This document shows, in pieces, positions 7,438-15,566 of a stretch of DNA of 16,979 bases. The notes beneath the pieces are model-generated. The model was not told where the DNA came from, did no database searches, and saw only the letters and a list, made by a program, of their open reading frames with translations. The DNA is from a virus (Duplodnaviria > Heunggongvirae > Uroviricota > Caudoviricetes). Position 1 is the first letter of the stretch, and each line of letters starts with the position of its first letter. Position numbers and translations under genes: made by a program. The stretch is taken from the IMG/VR virus record IMGVR_UViG_2713896771_000020, positions 1 through 16,979 of that record; one strand, 5' to 3'.

Positions 7438-7710
7438 TTAGCTGTCCTGGTAATTTCGCCATATTTCATCACCAGCACCATCCATACCCATTTCGGCATA
7501 AGTGCGATCGACCGCCTTTTTCAGGTCTCCGTAATTATCCGGCGGCTCCGGTGGCCTCTGTGCCTTCCTGGAACATTCCAGCCGTCGCATCGTAACCTGA
7601 TGCCGTTCCTTGTCTGTCTCCACCAGCAGCATGACTTCACCCCATCGCGCCGACGCCCTCCGGTAAAAGCCTTTTGCCTCGAGTTCCTCCGCTATGCGGT
7701 CATGTACCAT
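7438..7710 (-). CDS. Hypothetical 90-aa protein
   Basis: ATG at 7708-7710 with GAGGGGG Shine-Dalgarno, just downstream of the ssb stop. The longer ORF-track start overlaps ssb out of frame and is rejected. Confidence 0.5.
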   Translation of the reverse strand: MVHDRIAEELEAKGFYRRASARWGEVMLLVETDKERHQVTMRRLECSRKAQRPPEPPDNYGDLKKAVDRTYAEMGMDGAGDEIWRNYQDS

Positions 7711-7720
7711 CGTCACCCCC

Positions 7721-8131
7721 TCAGAACGGAATATCATCACCGTAGGGGTCATCGTCTCCCGCTGGTGGCTGATTACCCTGTGTGCCTGTGGTTTTGCGTC
7801 TGTTCCCGCCAGGACGTGCCGCACGGGCACTGATTACGCTGTCTGCAATAACCTGATACCCCTGCCGTGTTTCCCCGTTCTGTCCGGTCCACTGGCTTAC
7901 CTGCATCGTGCCGGATACGCTGGCAACATCGCCTTTTTGATGTTTAGCCAGGAAATCGGCCTGTTTGCCAAATGCGATAACCGATAACCATAACGTCGCC
8001 TGTCCGTCATGTGCCTGGCTGCATGGCAACGATACCGCCATACGCGCCAGAGTCATCGGTGTGCCCTTGCTGCTCTGTTTTACCAGCGGGTCGTCCACCA
8101 GGCGCCCGTAAGCTGCAATTTGTGCTGTCAT
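7721..8131 (-). CDS. ssb: Single-stranded DNA-binding protein with acidic C-terminal tip
   Basis: 136-aa ORF with SSB-like core (TLWLSVIAFGKQADFLAKHQKGDVASVSGTMQVSQW), Gly-rich linker and C-terminal DDDPYGDDIPF, the conserved SSB tail. GAGGTGG Shine-Dalgarno. Confidence 0.8.
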   Translation of the reverse strand: MTAQIAAYGRLVDDPLVKQSSKGTPMTLARMAVSLPCSQAHDGQATLWLSVIAFGKQADFLAKHQKGDVASVSGTMQVSQWTGQNGETRQGYQVIADSVISARAARPGGNRRKTTGTQGNQPPAGDDDPYGDDIPF

Positions 8132-8140
8132 ATTGCCACC

Positions 8141-8446
8141 TCAGTGAAGCGATCCGGCGTTGTTCTTTTTCATCTCTTCCATCATTTTTTCAGTGAGCAT
8201 TACGCACTGAAAACCCATGTTTTTGATGTCTACGGGTTTCATGCCTTTGTCAGTGGATATCACAGGCAGAATATCCTGATACACATCGCGGTCAGGGTAA
8301 CTAAGCACACAAAGCGCCCATGATGCCACGGGTGAGGATCCTTCGTCTGTTTCAACCCACCAGCCTGGTGTAGCTGCGCTTATTTGCAGAATCGTGATCA
8401 GTCCGTTGTGCTTGTAAAGTTTTTCACCAAATTTTGGTTCGCTCAT
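8141..8446 (-). CDS. Hypothetical 101-aa protein
   Basis: ATG 8444-8446 with GGAGAGGTGG Shine-Dalgarno. ATGA overlap with the upstream gene. No recognisable motif. Confidence 0.5.
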   Translation of the reverse strand: MSEPKFGEKLYKHNGLITILQISAATPGWWVETDEGSSPVASWALCVLSYPDRDVYQDILPVISTDKGMKPVDIKNMGFQCVMLTEKMMEEMKKNNAGSLH

Positions 8447-8694
8447 GATTCCACCTCTCCGGTTTTAACGTTGATGGTTGTTACCTGTTCCGCTTCGGCA
8501 ATCTCCCGTTCTGTCAGCGTGGCAAAGTTTGCCGCCGCCGTGGTCATGAATGCGCTTATCAGGTCGGGATGTTCCTTCGCGTATCCTTCCCGCGTGTGGC
8601 GGTCTATCGTTCTGATTGCCACCTTTAAGGTGTGCTCAGTCATGTCTAACGCTTTATATTTTGGCTCTGTTCTGTCTCTGCGTTTTTGGGTCAT
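8443..8694 (-). CDS. Hypothetical 83-aa protein (start uncertain: 8694, 8724 or 8643)
   Basis: In-frame ORF translationally coupled to the downstream gene. Its upstream region overlaps the iteron array. Confidence 0.4.
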   Translation of the reverse strand: MTQKRRDRTEPKYKALDMTEHTLKVAIRTIDRHTREGYAKEHPDLISAFMTTAAANFATLTEREIAEAEQVTTINVKTGEVES

Positions 8695-8703
8695 TTCTCG
8701 CAA

Positions 8704-8897
8704 CCTCTCACTTTTTCGCCTCACTTTTTCAAGCGTCTCACTTCGTCGCAGCTGGGATTTTCGGTTTTTCTATGTGTGTGTTTCATAAGTATTTTTTTAC
8801 CCCTCACTTTTGAGGATGTATACAGGTCGAAAAGTGAGGGAGAGCAGGCTAATTTTGGCCCTCTTTCTATCCACCTCGCTTTTGCTCCTCACTTTTA
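8704..8897. repeat. Iteron array, putative replication origin of the island
   Basis: CTCACTTTT-type repeats at 8707, 8720, 8737 (degenerate), 8803, 8874 (degenerate) and 8888, plus one inverted copy AAAAGTGAG at 8830-8838. Adjacent AT-rich tract 8783-8800. Lies immediately 3' of the replicase gene. Confidence 0.65.
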
Positions 8898-10295
8898 TAG
8901 CGGCGCTACATCATCCCCATCGATACGAATAACCCCATCTTTTTCCAGCTTGTACAGCCAGCGCCGGAAGTTTTTCATTTCATACCCCAGCTTTTTCATG
9001 TCATCACGTAACAGCGGGATCGTGCACTTGTCGCCGTTCTGTGTGCGTGAACGGATGCACCCCCATAAAGCGGTATGGTTTTCCGTCTTGTTCCCGGCCT
9101 CCTCGATGCGCTCCAGTTCAACAGGAGGGCGCGGATCATCCACCACCACCAGCGACGTGATTAATTCACCGTCAGCGTCGGTAAAAAGCTCCACCACGCG
9201 TAAGTCATATGCGGCTTCTTTGAGTTCCTCCGCGTCCTTCATTTTGGTGCATGAGATAACCAGCGCTTCGCTTCCTGCGTCCTCCCTGCGTATCCGGTAT
9301 TCAGCATCCAGCGAAGCACGAAATGCACTGGAACCGCGCGCGCCTTTCGTCTCATCCTTGCCGGAATGGTGAACCACCAGCACCGTGGCCCCTGTGCGTC
9401 GTTTCAGTTCGTCACAACCACGGATAAACGCCCCCATATCACGGGAATCATTTTCATCATTCCCACCAAAGCAACGCGCCAGCGTATCCAGAATAATCAT
9501 GCGAACAGGTTTACCCGTTTCCCGCTCCACCTGACGGGCAGCGATAACCATTTCATCAACATCAAGCGGGGCAGCCGGAAAGATGGGGCGGTTTACCAGA
9601 TACAGATTTTTCACCTGCTCATCGTGCACAACCTCCCAGGCTTTTACACGACGCGGAACACCTATACCGCCTTCACCAACCACATAGAGAACCGCACCAT
9701 GCGCAACCCTGCGGCCTCCCCACTGGCGACCAGTGGCAACATGGCACGCCCACGATCCGGCAAGGAATGATTTATAGGACCCGCTAGCCCCGTATATGCT
9801 GCATAGCGATACCGCCGGAATAATCCCCTTAACCACGTAATCCAGTTGCGTGTCGTATCCGGTAGATCCAACGCTCATCGGTAGCGTGGTTTTTCGCTGG
9901 TGGTTTTTTTCTTCCGCCGGCTCTTTCCCACGCACCCGTTCCAGGTATTCGCGCCAGTTCTCCCGCATATGGCTGTGCATCCCTTCGGGGTAATAATTCG
10001 CATCAGTTACACCCGCCGCCGCCAGCTTGTGCGCAATGGCATTAATATTTGATGGCCTGATGTGGCCTGCCTTGTACAGCCGGACACAATAGCGCCCCTC
10101 GTCGATGATTCTCAGGTCTGCCAGTTCATCCAGTTGATCATCAGCCAGCACAACGGGAGGCACATTATCGCCAGCCAGTCGCCCGTCCTGTTCCTGCCAC
10201 TGTTTCGCATGTGCCCAGGCATCACTACCCGCAAAAATAATGACTTCGGTCATCTTGTCGTAAGGCTGTTTTTTTAAGTTCGGTGCGCTTTTCAT
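8895..10295 (-). CDS. Primase/replicase-type replication initiator with RecA-like (RepA/AAA_25-type) ATPase domain
   Basis: 466-aa ORF. P-loop-like YGASGSYKS, Walker B MIILDTL, and VVHHSGKD motif typical of RepA-like helicase loaders. ATGA coupling to the upstream gene. Confidence 0.75.
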   Translation of the reverse strand: MKSAPNLKKQPYDKMTEVIIFAGSDAWAHAKQWQEQDGRLAGDNVPPVVLADDQLDELADLRIIDEGRYCVRLYKAGHIRPSNINAIAHKLAAAGVTDANYYPEGMHSHMRENWREYLERVRGKEPAEEKNHQRKTTLPMSVGSTGYDTQLDYVVKGIIPAVSLCSIYGASGSYKSFLAGSWACHVATGRQWGGRRVAHGAVLYVVGEGGIGVPRRVKAWEVVHDEQVKNLYLVNRPIFPAAPLDVDEMVIAARQVERETGKPVRMIILDTLARCFGGNDENDSRDMGAFIRGCDELKRRTGATVLVVHHSGKDETKGARGSSAFRASLDAEYRIRREDAGSEALVISCTKMKDAEELKEAAYDLRVVELFTDADGELITSLVVVDDPRPPVELERIEEAGNKTENHTALWGCIRSRTQNGDKCTIPLLRDDMKKLGYEMKNFRRWLYKLEKDGVIRIDGDDVAPL

Positions 10296-10591
10296 TTCTT
10301 GCCCCTGAATACGTTAAGCATCTTTTTTATTTCCTGAATATTGGCGCGTGCTTTCTCCCTGCTGGTTGGTTTACTGCGGGGCGCTGCCTGTACCAGAGAA
10401 AAATCACGCCGGAACTGATAAACAGGCATCACGCAGTCATATTCGTAGCCTTCACGGCGGTAGGTAATGCGTCGCTCTTCTACACCTTTAATCGTTACGG
10501 TGCCGCCGTACTGGTCGCGGTAAATATCGCCGCGCGTAAATTTAGGGTGAGTGTTGCCACTGGCAGTTAAGCCAGAATATTTAAGTTTCAT
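10292..10591 (-). CDS. Hypothetical 99-aa protein
   Basis: ATG 10589-10591; intact ORF in the same operon directly upstream of the replicase. Confidence 0.5.
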   Translation of the reverse strand: MKLKYSGLTASGNTHPKFTRGDIYRDQYGGTVTIKGVEERRITYRREGYEYDCVMPVYQFRRDFSLVQAAPRSKPTSREKARANIQEIKKMLNVFRGKK

Positions 10592-10596
10592 TATTT

Positions 10597-10830
10597 TTAT
10601 TCTCCGGTGTGCTGTTCTTTATATCTGTCGTGCAATATATCTATTTCTTGCAGTTCCATTATTACAGGATCAAGAAGCGTTATTAATGCCGTGGCAATTC
10701 TTGATTTTTGTTTGTCGCGTTCATTGTCGCCAAGTGTTTCAAGCCATATGCGCAATATTTCCAGCATGTTTTCACTGTGAGAAAGTGCAAGAAATGCGCG
10801 GTCTATTGTTTGGTGGTAAATATCACGCAT
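10597..10830 (-). CDS. Hypothetical 77-aa protein, AT-rich gene
   Basis: ATG 10828-10830 with GAGGA Shine-Dalgarno. Local GC visibly lower than flanking genes. Confidence 0.5.
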   Translation of the reverse strand: MRDIYHQTIDRAFLALSHSENMLEILRIWLETLGDNERDKQKSRIATALITLLDPVIMELQEIDILHDRYKEQHTGE

Positions 10831-11272
10831 GGCTTACATCCTCAGGAAATTTTCTTCTATAACGCGCCTCTGCCACATATTCCGCATAATCGGCGGCGAT
10901 ATTCAGTACATCAAGCCCCGTTGATTTATATTCTCTCGTGGAAAGTAAGAAAAAAGCCGCTCTAATAAGTTCTGGCATTGACGAAAGCGCATCAGCCGCA
11001 TCATCAGGAACGCCGGAAAATTCCTGTTTCAGGGAATTAAAACGATCATCACGCATAACCCCCCCCCCATTTTCACAATCAGCAACAAGAATATTTTTAG
11101 CGTCATTCAGCGACCGCGTTGCGGTGTATCGGATACATTCCAGGGCGAATAGTGTGTATTCTTCCCTTTCTTCCTTTTGTGCAAGCTCTGCTGTGCATTC
11201 AATATCAATAAGCGCGTGCATCAGCGTAGTGAGTGCGGCGGCGGCTGCGTCCGGTGTGGTTTTATTGCACAT
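10823..11272 (-). CDS. Hypothetical 149-aa protein containing a G10 homopolymer tract
   Basis: ATG 11270-11272 with GGAGGGG Shine-Dalgarno. The coding strand carries GGGGGGGGGG (plus-strand C10 at 11059-11068) encoding ENGGGV. Confidence 0.5.
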   Translation of the reverse strand: MCNKTTPDAAAAALTTLMHALIDIECTAELAQKEEREEYTLFALECIRYTATRSLNDAKNILVADCENGGGVMRDDRFNSLKQEFSGVPDDAADALSSMPELIRAAFFLLSTREYKSTGLDVLNIAADYAEYVAEARYRRKFPEDVSHA

Positions 11273-11492
11273 GTACCCCTCCGCATTTTTTTTCGTTAGA
11301 AATAAGCGTTCTTCTTTCCTGTTCATCGATCAGGAATACGCAGACCTCACCGCTAAGGCGTTTAAGTAAGCCGATGATTGCCCCTGATTCGCTGTCGGTC
11401 ATCATGCCTGGGTAATCCTCTGCCAGTGCGCAAATAACTTCGATTTGGTGGGCGCGTTCTACTGCCTGTTGTAGTGTGATTTCCTGGCTCAT
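11262..11492 (-). CDS. Hypothetical 76-aa acidic protein
   Basis: ATG 11490-11492 overlapping the stop of the upstream gene (ATGA). No recognisable motif. Confidence 0.5.
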   Translation of the reverse strand: MSQEITLQQAVERAHQIEVICALAEDYPGMMTDSESGAIIGLLKRLSGEVCVFLIDEQERRTLISNEKKCGGVHVQ

Positions 11493-11689
11493 AAGCCTAC
11501 CCCCTGACGAATACGGGCAGCGAATACCATCACGCAGCCAGCCGGGGATTGCAGGCGTGCTTCCTGTTCGCTGGTGGCCTCAATGGTAATCACGCGCGGT
11601 TGTGCAGTGCTCAGGGCGATAAAACGCCAAATGTATTTATTCAGGTTGTGCGAGTCCCGCCCTTGCGGGTGTGTGGTATGATTTCTCAT
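11489..11689 (-). CDS. Hypothetical 66-aa protein, first gene of the leftward early operon
   Basis: ATG 11687-11689 with GAGGT Shine-Dalgarno (MRNHTTHPQGRDSHNLNKYIWRF...). The ORF-track 381-aa extension upstream is non-coding promoter sequence. Confidence 0.5.
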   Translation of the reverse strand: MRNHTTHPQGRDSHNLNKYIWRFIALSTAQPRVITIEATSEQEARLQSPAGCVMVFAARIRQGVGL

Positions 11690-11885
11690 AGCTACCTCGA
11701 TACTCTCGTTATCGTTGGTGGTTAGAAGCCCCGTTACTGCTCCTACAGTGCGGGGTTTCGTCGTTTCTGCACCTTGCATTAACAAGGTGTAAGTAACTTT
11801 ATTTATAGGTGGCTTACATGTCAATGCTTTTATGTAAGACTTTTTATGTGTATATTGTCTTACACTTTCATTGAGAGGATTACAG
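11690..11885. promoter_or_regulatory. Divergent promoter/operator switch region
   Basis: Minus-strand promoter: perfect -35 TTGACA (11819-11824), 17-nt spacer, -10 TAAAGT (11796-11801). Plus-strand candidate -10 TATATT (11851-11856). Inverted repeats CTTACAT/ATGTAAG (11814-11820 and 11833-11839), TGTAAGAC/GTCTTACA (11834-11841 and 11858-11865), CACCTTG-N6-CAAGGTG (11770-11789). Confidence 0.6.
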
Positions 11886-12191
11886 ATGGCTACAGGTTCA
11901 AAAAACGCAAAATCACAATCACTGACAGCTCGGATCCCGCATGATGTTATTGAAGGCATGGAATCCGTAAAACTGGACGGTGAAAGCAACGCCGGATTCA
12001 TAGTAACCGCCATGCGCGGTGAAATCGCCCGCCGCCAGGCAGAAGGAAGCGGAGAAAACCTCCTGATTTCTTCGCTCAATGCACTGGCGCAGGTGGAAAA
12101 ACTCGGAATCAAAGCCGCCGAGGAGATCGGGCAGCTCGTCACTGTCGCACGTGAAGAACTCCAGCGCCGCAAGACTAAAGAACCAGAGTAA
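11886..12191 (+). CDS. Small ribbon-helix-helix-like DNA-binding protein, candidate island repressor
   Basis: ATG 11886 with GAGAGGA Shine-Dalgarno. N-terminal beta-strand/helix pattern SLTARIPHDVIEGMESVKLDGESNAGFIVTAMRGEIARRQ resembles Arc/CopG-type folds. Divergent from the early operon. Confidence 0.5.
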   Translation: MATGSKNAKSQSLTARIPHDVIEGMESVKLDGESNAGFIVTAMRGEIARRQAEGSGENLLISSLNALAQVEKLGIKAAEEIGQLVTVAREELQRRKTKEPE

Positions 12192-12248
12192 TCACCATCA
12201 GCGCCGTGGTGTAAGGTATTACGGCGCATTGCTATGCAGGACAACACA

Positions 12249-12422
12249 ATGACCGATAAAGAATTGACCAAAACATTATCACCGGCACGGAAAAGACGGC
12301 GCAGAAAGATAGAGCATGAATCAGAAAGATTCGCGCCATGTGCTTTTGCCCTTGAGCAATTCCTTAAAGAGTACAGGGAAAAGCGCTCATTGCAGGTATG
12401 GCAACGAACTGAACCAGACTGA
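12249..12422 (+). CDS. Hypothetical 57-aa basic protein
   Basis: ATG 12249 with AGGA Shine-Dalgarno 7 nt upstream (MTDKELTKTLSPARKRRRRK...). Second gene of the short plus-strand operon. Confidence 0.4.
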   Translation: MTDKELTKTLSPARKRRRRKIEHESERFAPCAFALEQFLKEYREKRSLQVWQRTEPD

Positions 12423-12517
12423 TTGCATTGCCCACCAGCCTGATAGCGGCTATCATCCCCGTGCTTATGTTTGGGATCACATACACAAACGGCGCAGCGG
12501 GTTATCTGTTCAGAAAG

Positions 12518-12545
12518 GCGGCTCCATTTCGGGGCCGCTTTTTTT
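12518..12545 (+). terminator. Rho-independent terminator of the plus-strand regulator operon
   Basis: 8-bp stem GCGGCTCC/GGGGCCGC with one G-U pair and loop ATTTC, followed by T7. A second AU-rich hairpin CTGAAAAAC/GTTTTTCAG lies at 12550-12579. Confidence 0.7.
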
Positions 12546-12691
12546 ATACCTGAAAAACCCCAATTTTGTTGTTTTTCAGTTTCACCAGGGCGAACGAATC
12601 CCCGCCCACGTTCTGGCGTATATTCAATCTTCATGGTTATGGCTCTGTGTTCAGATGATTGATGTGTGGCGGCTGCGTGCCGCCAGCGTGA

Positions 12692-13254: not shown

Positions 13255-14484
13255 TTATTTTCTTCTGGCTACTGGTAGCGTGGTTACGTTTTCATGTGTT
13301 CCCGCCAGTATCCCTAACCGCTCCATCCACATATCCAGCACATTGCGTTTAGCATCCAGATAACGGGAATGATTATAAACTCGCTGCATTCCTGGCATCT
13401 GGTGGCCTGTAAGCTGCTCCACGACATGCGGATCAACGCCTAAATCGTTCAGCATGGTTGTAAAGGTGCGCCGGATGTCATGCAGTGACCAGTGAGGATG
13501 ATTAAGCCTCCTGTGCGCTAATCTTCCATACTGCGATACGCTGGCCTCCTGTTTCACTTCCCCCAGCAATAAGCCCGTGTGCCTGTTCTGCTCCACCAGC
13601 TGCGTGACGAACGGCAGGATCGCTTCCGGTATGGGCCGGAATATTGCGACCTTCGTTTTGCTGTGCTCCTTCGGAACGGTCCATAGCATTTCCGTAAAAT
13701 CCCACTCCCCGATCTCCGATAGCCTCAGTTCTACCGTCCTGGCTCCGAAGACAATCAGGAGGCGGATTAACGCGACGTAGTAAGGGGAAAATATTTTTTT
13801 GTCCAGTGCCTGCAATAATTCGCCAAGTTCTTTGTTACTTAAGACACGTTCGCTTATATCCGGTTTTTTCCCAACGTCCGCCACGTTCAGATCGTCCAGA
13901 ACGTTGCTGATTGCATAGCGCCGCCTACGGCAGAACTTAAGCGCCTGTTTGCACGCCTGTAGCACGAATCCGGCAGTAACAGGCGTTCGCTTTGCCACCT
14001 GGTCAAAACAGGCCAGCCAGTGCCGTAGCTCGCATTTATCCAGCGGCATAGCACCAATCTGCTGTATTACGTGATTATTAAGTCGCCTTTTCAGGGCGAT
14101 ATAATCCACGCGGTTTTCCTTTACGTAATACTCAAGCCAGTAGGTGAGCGCATCGCCAACCGTTACGGGCTTTAACGCTTCCTGTACGGTGTAATTCATC
14201 TCATGACGTGGATTTTTCCCCTCAGCCAGCCATGTGCGACACTGTGCGGCTTTTTCCCTGGCTGCTTTCAGGCTCAGATCAGGATAACTTCCCAGCTTAA
14301 TGCGTTCGGGTCGTGTCTCCCTTCCCGTTCCGGCCCTGTATGTGAAATACCAGGTCAATTTCCCTGATGTTAAATATTTCACGCTCAGGTTTCCGCCATC
14401 ACTATAAAACGTGTTTTTCTCCGCTGGCTTACCATGAAGTTTCCTTAGCAAGGTATCGCTCAGTTTGTTCATTGCTCTGCTCAC
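13255..14484 (-). CDS. int: Tyrosine site-specific integrase (P4-like family)
   Basis: 409-aa ORF; C-terminal catalytic region with HDIRRTF ... LTGHQ ... RVYNHSRY (R, H-x-x-R, Y). GTG start 14482-14484 with AGAGGGGG Shine-Dalgarno; alternative ATG at 14472. Adjacent to the insertion junction. Confidence 0.9.
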   Translation of the reverse strand: MSRAMNKLSDTLLRKLHGKPAEKNTFYSDGGNLSVKYLTSGKLTWYFTYRAGTGRETRPERIKLGSYPDLSLKAAREKAAQCRTWLAEGKNPRHEMNYTVQEALKPVTVGDALTYWLEYYVKENRVDYIALKRRLNNHVIQQIGAMPLDKCELRHWLACFDQVAKRTPVTAGFVLQACKQALKFCRRRRYAISNVLDDLNVADVGKKPDISERVLSNKELGELLQALDKKIFSPYYVALIRLLIVFGARTVELRLSEIGEWDFTEMLWTVPKEHSKTKVAIFRPIPEAILPFVTQLVEQNRHTGLLLGEVKQEASVSQYGRLAHRRLNHPHWSLHDIRRTFTTMLNDLGVDPHVVEQLTGHQMPGMQRVYNHSRYLDAKRNVLDMWMERLGILAGTHENVTTLPVARRK

Positions 14485-14574: not shown

Positions 14575-14660
14575 GGAAAATCACAAATCTGTTGATAATC
14601 AAAAACATAATGCACAGCCTGAAACATTATGAAACAGCAAAAAACACTAAATGATAAAAT

Positions 14661-15566
14661 GCTGTTATTCTTAACCCGCTGGTGCAACACATGGTCCGCT
14701 GGCGAGTGCCGCGTGTACTGGCGGTGTCGATTTTGATGACCATCATCGTGATGGCGATGGTGTTGCTATTAGCTTATCTGGGTTCCGCGCTCAACGAGTT
14801 GACGCGGACGTTACCGCAATATCGCAACTCTATTATGACGCCGCTGCAAGCTCTTGAGCCGTTGTTGCAACGCGTAGGGATTGACGTCTCAGTTGACCAG
14901 CTGGCGCATTACATTGATCCGAACGCGGCGATGACGTTGCTCACCAACTTATTGACGCAGTTATCTAATGCCATGTCATCAATATTTTTATTGCTGCTGA
15001 CGGTGCTGTTTATGCTGCTCGAAGTGCCACAATTGCCCGGAAAATTTCAGCAAATGATGGCGCGTCCGGTTGAAGGGATGGCGGCGATTCAACGTGCAAT
15101 TGACAGTGTTTCTCATTATCTGGTGCTGAAAACAGCCATCAGCATCATCACCGGCCTGGTCGCCTGGGCGATGCTCGCCGCACTCGATGTTCGCTTCGCT
15201 TTTGTCTGGGGATTGCTGGCCTTTGCGCTTAATTACATCCCTAATATTGGTTCAGTTCTCGCGGCAATCCCCCCTATCGCTCAGGTACTGGTGTTTAATG
15301 GCTTCTACGAAGCGTTGCTGGTGCTGGCGGGATATCTGCTGATTAATCTGGTCTTCGGCAATATTCTGGAGCCGCGCATCATGGGACGTGGGCTGGGGCT
15401 TTCCACATTGGTGGTATTTTTGTCGTTGATTTTTTGGGGATGGTTGTTAGGACCGGTGGGTATGCTGCTTTCCGTGCCGTTAACAATTATTGTCAAAATT
15501 GCGCTTGAACAAACAGCGGGAGGTCAAAGCATCGCCGTTCTGTTAAGCGATCTCAATAAAGAGTGG
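14661..15566 (+). pseudogene. tqsA: 5'-truncated tqsA (AI-2 exporter, AI-2E family), disrupted by the island
   Basis: Translation from 14661 reads [22 protein letters not shown]... through the conserved AI-2E transporter body. An in-frame stop at 14652-14654 and AT-rich island DNA lie immediately upstream, so the N-terminal transmembrane segment and promoter are absent. 3' limit set by the expected stop near 15564, which is TGG in this sequence. Confidence 0.7.

What the first reader, a model, noticed from the sequence alone, without database searches (positions are those of the whole stretch)
8704..8897. Iteron-type origin immediately 3' of the replicase gene
At least six CTCACTT(T) repeats, one of them inverted, plus an AT-rich tract lie between the replicase stop and the next gene, with the last repeat overlapping the replicase 3' end. 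This is the expected arrangement of a satellite origin bound by its cognate initiator, and it defines replicon specificity.
Basis: partly seen in the sequence, partly recalled or inferred. Interest (0 to 1): 0.45.

Follow-up and report, generated by a model that had tools for sequence, protein, structure and literature searches.

The report
Iteron origin of a phage satellite
The 200-base gap after the replication-helicase gene of this E. coli phage satellite holds seven short repeats around an AT-rich tract, and they look like the docking sites of that helicase. This is the expected satellite replication origin, so it is ordinary but very well supported by comparison with related elements.

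Summary
All six exact CTCACTT copies in the window lie in 8707-8894, with a seventh degenerate copy and a 25%-GC tract. They fill the gap between the Rep stop and the next gene.

The window is a capsid-forming PICI-type satellite inserted in tqsA.
- About 90 Rep homologues across Enterobacterales have the same layout after the stop codon.
- The repeat sequence changes with the Rep C-terminal domain, which is predicted to be a winged helix.
- Residue 442 sits at the start of helix 3. Asn goes with AAGTGAGG (31/31 loci) and His with AAGTGGGG (16/16).
- Two E. coli alleles identical over their last 62 residues except N442H carry fully switched arrays.

The kind is already published. [quoted passage not shown] EcCI042, a catalogued PICI, has a 465/466-identical Rep and a 208/211-identical origin. 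The experimentally validated EcCICFT073 replicon sits in the same gene context but uses an SF3 helicase and TGTCTACC iterons. Here the core is RecA-type (AAA_25, RSF1010 RepA-like).

Verdict: a new member of a known kind, of low to moderate interest.

The parts
8895..10295 (-). Rep, 466 aa: N-terminal alpha/beta domain (~17-123), RecA-type AAA_25 helicase core (~148-390), C-terminal winged helix (~400-466)
   Evidence: Pfam AAA_25, E 2.4e-43. PDB profile hit to the RSF1010 RepA helicase 1g8y, E 5e-5. AF2 models. RefSeq annotates it as 'helicase RepA family protein'.
8898..9098 (-). Rep C-terminal winged-helix domain (residues 400-466), the inferred iteron reader
   Evidence: The C-terminal-domain-only AF2 model has pLDDT 90 with an H-H-H-beta-beta topology. 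All top Foldseek PDB hits are winged-helix DNA-binding domains, with probability 0.9-0.99, TM 0.55-0.76 and weak E-values of 0.07-0.2.
8970..8972 (-). Codon of Asn442 (AAC), at the N-cap of winged-helix helix 3; the residue that co-varies with iteron base 6
   Evidence: This is the only Rep column separating GTGAGG-type from GTGGGG-type E. coli loci. KN goes with GTGAGG in 31/31 loci and KH with GTGGGG in 16/16. The P0047/P0004 pair shows the same switch.
8887..8896 (-). Iteron 1, AAAAGTGAGG; overlaps the Rep stop codon by 2 nt
8874..8883 (-). Iteron 2, degenerate: AAAAGCGAGG
   Evidence: The position is conserved as a full iteron in other alleles.
8830..8839 (+). Iteron 3, AAAAGTGAGG, inverted relative to the others; left arm of the palindrome
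   Evidence: An inverted copy sits at +45 to +60 from the stop in nearly all homologous loci.
8801..8840 (.). 40-bp palindrome made of iterons 3 and 4 around GTATAC (8818-8823); proposed head-to-head Rep assembly site
   Evidence: Inverted repeats I1 and I2. The TATA-rich centre and the 29-nt spacing are conserved across genera.
8802..8811 (-). Iteron 4, AAAAGTGAGG
8755..8800 (.). AT-rich tract (25% GC in 8760-8799; A-rich on the sense strand), the presumed unwinding element
   Evidence: An AT-rich gap of ~55-65 nt sits at the same place in homologous loci.
8736..8745 (-). Iteron 5, CGAAGTGAGA
8719..8728 (-). Iteron 6, AAAAGTGAGG
8706..8715 (-). Iteron 7, AAAAGTGAGA; overlaps the Shine-Dalgarno region of the next gene
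10292..10591 (-). DUF4222 gene, translationally coupled to rep (ATGA overlap); constant companion of the module
   Evidence: No column of it tracks the iteron type.
8443..8694 (-). 83-aa gene directly after the origin (phrog_1231, function unknown)
   Evidence: It is absent in L089 and L092, which still carry GTGAGG iterons.
7721..8131 (-). Element-encoded single-strand DNA-binding protein
   Evidence: Pfam SSB, E 6.5e-16

Best explanation
The stretch 8706-8896 is the vegetative replication origin of a capsid-forming PICI-type phage satellite.

Its Rep is a single polypeptide with a RecA-type (AAA_25, RSF1010-RepA-like) helicase core and a C-terminal winged-helix domain. The winged helix reads the 8-10-bp iteron AAAAGTGAGG. 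The residue at the N-cap of helix 3 (Asn442) is inferred to discriminate base 6 of the iteron (A versus G).

The layout runs as follows from the rep stop codon:
- two iterons right at the stop;
- an inverted pair forming a 40-bp palindrome around GTATAC;
- a ~45-bp AT-rich tract;
- three more direct iterons.

Inferred mechanism: after helper-phage induction and excision, Rep oligomers bind both iteron sets, with the palindrome nucleating a head-to-head pair. The AT-rich tract then melts, the helicase loads itself, and the element's SSB and the host replisome take over.

What is shown: the repeat anatomy, its conservation, its co-variation with the Rep C-terminal domain, and the predicted domain folds. 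What is inferred: binding, melting, self-loading and replication.
For: 1. The repeats are non-random and confined to the gap after rep.

2. The same layout recurs in ~80 loci from many Enterobacterales genera and in 15 E. coli loci. Direct copies sit at +2 to +30 from the stop, an inverted copy at ~+45 to +60, a direct copy 29 nt later, an AT-rich gap follows, and direct copies sit at ~+145 to +185. The motif is near-absent from the remaining 5-7 kb of each locus.

3. The motif differs between loci and tracks the Rep C-terminal domain:
- KN-F goes with AAGTGAGG, 31/31 loci (26 distinct C-terminal domains);
- KH-F goes with AAGTGGGG, 16/16;
- KK-F goes with AAGTGGGGG, 28/28;
- RKS-F goes with AAGTGCGGC, 7/8;
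- RKG-F goes with AAATGCGC, 1/1.

4. P0047 and P0004 are identical over their last 62 residues except N442H. Their origins carry GTGAGG and GTGGGG respectively at every iteron position, including the inverted one.

5. In eight mosaic E. coli alleles, position 442 is the only Rep column that separates the two origin types. No DUF4222 column does.

6. The C-terminal domain is confidently predicted as a winged helix, with residue 442 at the start of helix 3.

7. The array sits where PICI origins are documented, and EcCICFT073 rep-ori in the same gene context drives plasmid replication (PMC6092414).

8. Between the window, O157:H7 SS52 and EcCI042, the three SNPs in the origin all lie outside the iteron cores.
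Against: There is no experimental test for this Rep type; binding, melting and replication are all inferred.

The eight-allele column test is weak on its own. 17 of the 35 possible 4/4 partitions also have at least one separating column.

The AT-rich tract is not the least stable DNA in the window.

No primase domain was found in Rep, so priming is unexplained.

Foldseek E-values for the short C-terminal domain are weak (0.07-0.2), and the helicase core of the full-length model is partly low-confidence.

Co-resident elements with the same iteron class exist in one chromosome (L005 with L008, L006 with L011). So 'specificity' need not mean incompatibility.
Confidence: 0.85

Rival explanations
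1. The repeats are operator sites for a transcription factor other than Rep, for example the AlpA-like regulator, PerC, DUF4222 or the 83-aa downstream protein. On this reading they control the downstream SSB/PerC/packaging operon and are not an origin.
For: The array lies upstream of the next gene, and the last repeat overlaps its ribosome-binding region. All island genes are co-oriented, so the gap could hold a regulatory element.
Against: No sigma-70-like promoter is found in 8300-9300.

The repeat sequence tracks the Rep C-terminal domain, not DUF4222: no separating column exists, and DUF4222 is 90.6% identical between L089 and L090, which differ in iteron type.

The 83-aa gene is absent from L089 and L092, which keep the same iterons and layout.

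The layout of iterons flanking an AT-rich tract 3' of rep is the documented PICI origin.

Rep binding could still also affect transcription.
Confidence: 0.06
2. The 40-bp palindrome acts as an RNA or DNA hairpin, such as a terminator, attenuator or processing site between rep and the downstream genes. The other copies would then be incidental.
For: The sense-strand RNA folds into an 11-13-bp stem of -16.3 kcal/mol, z = -3.0. Both arms change together between alleles, which also preserves pairing.
Against: No U-tract follows the stem on the sense strand (GGUAAAAAAAUA), and the terminator scan does not flag it.

The five direct copies outside the palindrome change in concert with the arms. A hairpin does not explain that.
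Confidence: 0.04
3. The repeats are a packaging signal, that is cos/pac or TerS binding sites, for the satellite's own terminase.
For: Terminase small subunits often bind short repeated sites, and the element encodes its own TerS, TerL and HNH.
Against: The array is about 6 kb from the HNH-TerS-TerL genes.

The same Rep-ori module is joined to three unrelated capsid and packaging modules: Phage_cap_E, HK97 Phage_capsid and a ClpP-capsid fusion. It also occurs in EcCI042, which lacks portal and terminase genes.

The repeats co-vary with Rep.
Confidence: 0.02
4. The cluster is a chance or low-complexity feature with no function.
For: The units are short (7-10 nt) and the region is purine/pyrimidine-skewed.
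Against: 0 of 200 shuffles reach the observed count. Block shuffles give at most 4 hits per 200 nt against 7 observed. The positional layout is conserved across genera while the motif itself changes.
Confidence: 0.01

Closest known systems
EcCI042 (E. coli 042 PICI at tqsA; Fillol-Salom et al. 2018, ISME J, PMC6092414, Table S1)
   Same: Same attachment site, tqsA with core ATAACAGCA. Rep is 465/466 identical and the origin region 208/211 identical. The order DUF4222-Rep-gap-83 aa-SSB-PerC is the same. The paper states that all PICIs it identified share the iteron/AT-rich origin organisation.
   Different: EcCI042 carries only capsid and decoration genes, with no portal or terminase, so the morphogenesis half differs. 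I could not see Fig. 2a, so I do not know whether its iterons were drawn. Its replicon was not the one tested.
EcCICFT073 pri-rep-ori (the experimentally validated Gram-negative PICI replicon; PMC6092414)
   Same: Identical gene context: int, HTH, Icd-like, DUF4222, Rep, ~200-290-nt gap, small ORF, SSB, PerC. The first ~125 Rep residues are 62% identical. The gap holds many 8-9-bp iterons. Its rep-ori supports plasmid replication, and deleting rep or ori abolishes it.
   Different: Its Rep is 584 aa with D5_N, DUF5906 and Pox_D5 domains (SF3 type), not AAA_25. Its iterons are T(G/A)TCTACC, arranged as two opposed sets. In the window they are mostly direct, with one inverted pair on one side of the AT tract. 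The helicase, DNA-binding domain and origin appear to be exchanged together as a cassette.
SaPI Rep/ori (Ubeda et al. 2007; Qiao et al. 2022, PMC9371898)
   Same: The origin is immediately downstream of rep. It has 6-12 short iterons split by a central AT-rich region. The initiator is a self-loading helicase whose C-terminal winged helix reads the iterons, and Rep-ori pairs are specific.
   Different: SaPI Reps are SF3/AAA+ helicases that move 3' to 5'. Here the core is RecA-type and RSF1010-RepA-like. SaPI iterons are 5-6 nt, with at least two on each side pointing in opposite directions. Here the unit is 8-10 nt and the only inverted copy is on the rep-proximal side.
Phage P4 alpha protein with ori and crr
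   Same: A satellite initiator that fuses a helicase to a C-terminal DNA-binding domain recognising short repeated octamers (established knowledge; P4 is mentioned).
   Different: P4 alpha has a primase domain and an SF3 helicase and needs two separated sites, ori and crr. The window has only one iteron cluster and no detectable primase domain.
IncQ plasmid RSF1010 (RepA helicase, RepC initiator, RepB primase)
   Same: The ATPase core is homologous to the RSF1010 RepA hexameric helicase (1g8y, E 5e-5). Both origins combine iterons with an AT-rich region.
   Different: In RSF1010 a separate protein, RepC, binds 20-bp iterons, and RepA has no DNA-binding domain (established knowledge). Here the helicase and the iteron reader are one polypeptide and the iterons are 8-10 bp.
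Classical iteron plasmids (pPS10, R6K, RK2, F) and the SV40 large-T origin
   Same: A cognate initiator binds repeated sites next to an AT-rich unwinding element. The palindromic pair of sites next to an AT tract resembles, by analogy, the SV40 core origin, where a helicase-initiator forms a head-to-head double hexamer (established knowledge).
   Different: Plasmid iterons are 17-22 bp and phased, are read by WH1-WH2 initiators without a helicase, and depend on DnaA and DnaB. No conserved DnaA box is present here: only a 7/9 match at 8867-8875, absent from other alleles. SV40 T antigen is an SF3 helicase with a different DNA-binding fold.

Membership tests
PICI/SaPI-type replication origin | Lies immediately 3' of the replication initiator gene | tested here: met
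   The array starts at the Rep stop codon and fills the 200-nt gap to the next gene.
PICI/SaPI-type replication origin | [quoted passage not shown] | tested here: met
   Four copies lie at 8802-8896, a 25%-GC tract at 8760-8799, and three copies at 8706-8745.
PICI/SaPI-type replication origin | [quoted passage not shown] | tested here: not met
   Six of seven copies share one orientation. The single inverted copy is on the rep-proximal side and pairs with its neighbour. EcCICFT073 does show opposed sets.
PICI/SaPI-type replication origin | Initiator is a helicase with a C-terminal winged-helix domain that reads the iterons specifically | tested here: met
   Fold by prediction only: AAA_25 core and a winged-helix C-terminal domain. 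Specificity is inferred from co-variation. Binding itself was not tested.
PICI/SaPI-type replication origin | Initiator helicase belongs to SF3 (AAA+, D5-like) | tested here: not met
   Pfam AAA_25, plus similarity to RSF1010 RepA, RadA and Rad51 (RecA fold). EcCICFT073 Rep is D5_N/Pox_D5.
PICI/SaPI-type replication origin | The rep-ori fragment replicates autonomously and depends on both rep and ori | not testable with these tools
   This needs cloning. It has been done for EcCICFT073, SaPIbov1, SaPI1 and EfCIV583 only.
Capsid-forming PICI (the host element) | Integrase, AlpA-type regulator and rep, plus own capsid, protease, portal, head-tail connectors, HNH, TerS and TerL; no tail or lysis genes; ~15 kb between att sites | tested here: met
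   Annotation of the 99.7%-identical H19 locus and Pfam/PHROG scans. The component list comes from PMC10085698. The att core is at 14660-14668. Helper-dependent induction was not tested.
Classical iteron-plasmid oriV | 17-22-bp phased iterons read by a helicase-less WH1-WH2 Rep, with DnaA boxes | tested here: not met
   The units are 8-10 bp with spacings of 13, 13 and 17 nt within the direct runs and 29 nt across the inverted pair. Rep carries its own helicase. There is no conserved DnaA box.
P4-type ori/crr system | Two separated iteron clusters (ori and crr) and a primase-helicase alpha protein | tested here: not met
   There is only one cluster in the window, and no primase domain above threshold.

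The most novel reading that the evidence does not exclude
Satellite replicon specificity in this family may be set by a simple one-residue, one-base code. The residue at the N-cap of the winged-helix recognition helix (N, H, K or S at position 442) would choose base 6 of the iteron (A, G, G or C). New specificity groups would then arise by one amino-acid change plus concerted change of all about seven iterons.

The initiator would also be a self-loading RecA-type (SF4-like) helicase fused to its own origin reader. That would be a bacterial counterpart of the SF3 viral initiators, exchanged with the SF3 version as a helicase-DBD-ori cassette behind a shared N-terminal domain.
Probability: 0.55. 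Interest if true: 0.5.

Novelty: new member of a known kind. Interest (0 to 1): 0.3.

Why it matters
It places the origin of a very common E. coli satellite replicon. Homologous Rep-ori DNA matches 1631 of 5426 complete genomes, and this origin allele matches 492.

It also gives a ready experimental handle: a natural N442H / A-to-G pair for testing how a helicase-initiator reads its origin.

It shows that the helicase, DNA-binding domain and origin travel together as a swappable cassette among PICIs and capsid-forming PICIs with different capsid modules.

It does not change the current picture of PICI replication. It fills in one replicon type.

Tried and rejected
- **Literature.** The cf-PICI papers do not mention ori or iterons. 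No paper in the library links DUF4222 or AAA_25 to PICIs. Iteron sequences could not be found in the 2018 supplement, and Fig. 2a itself is not held.
- **Full-length fold search.** The full-length AF2 model was mediocre (pLDDT 65). Its Foldseek search gave only RecA-fold (Rad51/RadA, T7 gp4) and noise hits. I therefore re-predicted the C-terminal domain alone.
- **Promoter and terminator scan.** Nothing relevant was found in the gap.
- **Second iteron cluster (P4 crr-like).** None was found.
- **DnaA box.** There is only a 7/9 match at 8867-8875, and it is not conserved in other alleles.
- **Phage collection.** No phage has the full Rep architecture; only the ATPase core matches.
- **Eight-allele discriminating-column test.** It is not significant by itself, because 17 of 35 partitions have a separating column. 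I do not lean on it alone.
- **AT tract as the least stable DNA of the window.** Rejected; it is in the top 1-2% only.

Full report
**What the window is.** All island genes run on the minus strand. From right to left they are:
- a tyrosine integrase (13255-14484);
- an AlpA-like HTH gene and Icd-like genes;
- DUF4222 (10292-10591);
- a 466-aa 'helicase RepA family' protein (8895-10295);
- a 200-nt gap;
- an 83-aa gene (8443-8694) and a 101-aa gene;
- SSB (7721-8131) and PerC;
- major capsid, prohead protease, portal, head closure, connector, HNH, TerS and TerL.

The DNA is 99.7% identical to E. coli H19, where the island sits between two tqsA fragments next to pntB. The published PICI att core for tqsA, ATAACAGCA, is at 14660-14668, just beyond int. 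With its own capsid and packaging genes and no tail or lysis genes, the element fits the capsid-forming PICI description.

**Checking the observation.** CTCACTT occurs six times in the window, and all six are in 8707-8894. Five are on one strand and one is inverted. About 1.5 are expected, and no shuffle out of 200 reaches six. On the gene-sense strand the unit is AAAAGTGAGG. With one mismatch allowed, 7 of the window's 12 hits are in this gap, against at most 4 per 200 nt in block shuffles.

Read from the Rep stop codon, the order is:
- iteron 1 (8887-8896, overlapping the TAA stop by two bases);
- degenerate iteron 2 (8874-8883);
- an inverted iteron (8830-8839) and a direct iteron (8802-8811), which together form a 40-bp palindrome centred on GTATAC;
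- an AT-rich tract (8760-8799, 25% GC);
- three direct iterons (8736-8745, 8719-8728, 8706-8715), the last touching the ribosome-binding region of the next gene.

**Comparative anatomy.** A scan of one genome per species returned 80 loci with Rep homologues, from Citrobacter, Xenorhabdus, Kosakonia, Pantoea, Pectobacterium, Serratia, Morganella, Erwinia and others. I added 15 E. coli loci carrying different Rep alleles.

In almost every locus the 250 nt after the Rep stop has the same plan:
- one to three direct repeats at +2 to +30;
- an inverted copy at about +45 to +60;
- a TATA-rich centre;
- a direct copy 29 nt after the inverted one;
- an AT-rich gap of 55-65 nt;
- two to four direct copies at about +145 to +185.

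The dominant motif is nearly absent from the other 5-7 kb of each locus. So the layout is conserved while the motif itself changes.

**Co-variation with Rep.** The motif falls into classes that follow the residues just before the conserved F-x-R-W of the Rep C-terminus:
- K-N goes with AAGTGAGG in 31 of 31 loci with at least three copies (26 distinct C-terminal sequences);
- K-H goes with AAGTGGGG in 16 of 16;
- K-K goes with AAGTGGGGG in 28 of 28;
- R-K-S goes with AAGTGCGGC in 7 of 8;
- R-K-G goes with AAATGCGC in 1 of 1.

The N and H classes each occur both in E. coli and in other genera, on different C-terminal backgrounds.

The sharpest case is a natural pair, P0047 and P0004. They are identical over their last 62 residues except Asn442 versus His. 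Their origins carry GTGAGG and GTGGGG respectively at every iteron position, including the inverted arm.

Among eight mosaic E. coli alleles (63-91% identical), position 442 is the only Rep column that separates the two origin types, and no DUF4222 column does. That test alone is weak, because 17 of the 35 possible 4/4 splits also have a separating column. The weight rests on three things: the near-isogenic pair, the replication in other genera, and where the residue sits.

The three SNPs that distinguish the window's origin from those of O157:H7 SS52 and EcCI042 all fall outside iteron cores.

**The initiator.** Pfam places residues 148-315 in AAA_25. A profile search of the PDB finds the RSF1010 RepA hexameric helicase. 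NCBIfam and Foldseek give only RadA/Rad51-type RecA folds.

The C-terminal 70 residues are predicted with pLDDT 90 as helix-helix-helix-hairpin. All top structural neighbours are winged-helix DNA-binding domains: HrcA, IclR, LexA, MarR, Fur, DtxR, the MCM8 WH domain and histone H1. Their probabilities are 0.9-0.99 but their E-values are weak. Residue 442 is the N-cap of the third helix, which is the recognition helix.

No complete phage in the phage collection has this full architecture.

[quoted passage not shown] They are read by the winged helix of a self-loading helicase.

EcCI042 is a PICI catalogued in the 2018 survey at the same tqsA site. Its Rep is 465/466 identical and its origin 208/211 identical to the window's. 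The survey states that all PICIs it identified share this origin organisation. So the kind, and arguably this very module, is already covered in print, although I could not see the figure that lists the iterons.

The only Gram-negative PICI replicon tested experimentally is EcCICFT073. It has the same gene context, and its first 125 Rep residues are 62% identical to those of the window Rep. Beyond that it carries D5_N/DUF5906/Pox_D5 (SF3) domains and TGTCTACC iterons in two opposed sets. So the helicase core, the DNA-binding domain and the origin are exchanged together behind a shared N-terminal domain. The window represents the RecA-type version of the cassette.

It fails two SaPI-derived features: an SF3 helicase, and opposed iteron sets on the two sides of the AT tract. 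It also does not fit classical iteron plasmids or P4 ori/crr (see the membership table).

**Mechanism and rivals.** The most likely mechanism is that Rep oligomers bind both iteron sets through the winged helix. The palindrome nucleates a head-to-head pair, the AT tract melts, the helicase loads itself, and SSB and the host replisome follow. Only the anatomy, conservation, co-variation and predicted folds are shown; the rest is inferred.

The rivals fare poorly:
- An operator for another protein is unlikely. There is no promoter in the gap, the repeats track Rep and not DUF4222, and the 83-aa gene is dispensable for the pattern.
- A hairpin terminator is unlikely. The stem is plausible, but it has no U-tract and does not explain the direct copies changing in concert.
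- A packaging site is unlikely. The module is combined with three different capsid and packaging sets, and with EcCI042, which has no terminase.
- Chance is excluded.

**Verdict.** It is a new member of a known kind and would not surprise a specialist, so overall interest is 0.3. The modestly new points are the Asn/His to A/G correspondence, the winged helix on a RecA-type helicase, and the cassette swap with the SF3 type.

Noticed in passing
window 14660-14668: ATAACAGCA, the att core published for the tqsA-integrating PICIs EcCI042 and EcCIK1516, lies just beyond the integrase gene. It marks the int-proximal island end. The other end lies left of the window start, judging from the H19 locus.
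   Followed up: partly
window 9921-10295 (Rep residues 1-125): The N-terminal alpha/beta domain of Rep is 62% identical to the N-terminus of the SF3-type EcCICFT073 Pri-Rep, while the rest of the two proteins is unrelated. It gives only a weak PHROG 'DNA primase' hit. Its role is unknown; it might be a partner-binding or priming module.
   Followed up: partly
window 8706-8715 and ATG at 8694; L094 and L090: The last iteron overlaps the Shine-Dalgarno region of the next gene. In His-type alleles, whose iterons are GTGGGG, the copy nearest the ATG reverts toward GTGAGG/GAGA. This suggests a dual constraint from the ribosome-binding site and Rep binding.
   Followed up: no
loci L082, L084, L086, L088, L097, L098: The same DUF4222-Rep-ori module is joined to at least three different capsid modules: Phage_cap_E with a decoration protein, HK97-type Phage_capsid, and a ClpP protease-capsid fusion. 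It also occurs in elements without portal or terminase genes. This shows modular exchange between PICIs and capsid-forming PICIs.
   Followed up: partly
L005 with L008 (Xenorhabdus sp. TCT-1); L006 with L011 (X. bakwenae): Two satellites with the same iteron class (GTGAGGA) co-reside in one chromosome. Shared origin specificity therefore does not prevent co-residence of integrated elements.
   Followed up: no
window 11489-12634 (minus strand): A 381-aa ORF whose C-terminus matches Icd-like / 'transcriptional repressor' PHROGs. In the 99.7%-identical H19 record this stretch is annotated instead as an Icd-like gene, a plus-strand YlcI/YnfO gene and a partial pseudogene.
   Followed up: no
window 10823-11326 (minus strand): A 167-aa ORF that is intact here is annotated as a frameshifted pseudogene in E. 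coli H19.
   Followed up: no
window 8867-8875: CTATCCACC, a 7/9 match to the DnaA box TTATCCACA, lies between iterons 2 and 3. It is not conserved in the other E. coli origin alleles, so it is probably fortuitous.
   Followed up: partly
window 7438-7710 (minus strand): A PerC-family regulator gene lies in the satellite. The 2018 PICI survey notes that some PICI PerC homologues activate the LEE pathogenicity island, and the window's origin allele is 98.6% identical to that of many O157:H7 genomes.
   Followed up: no
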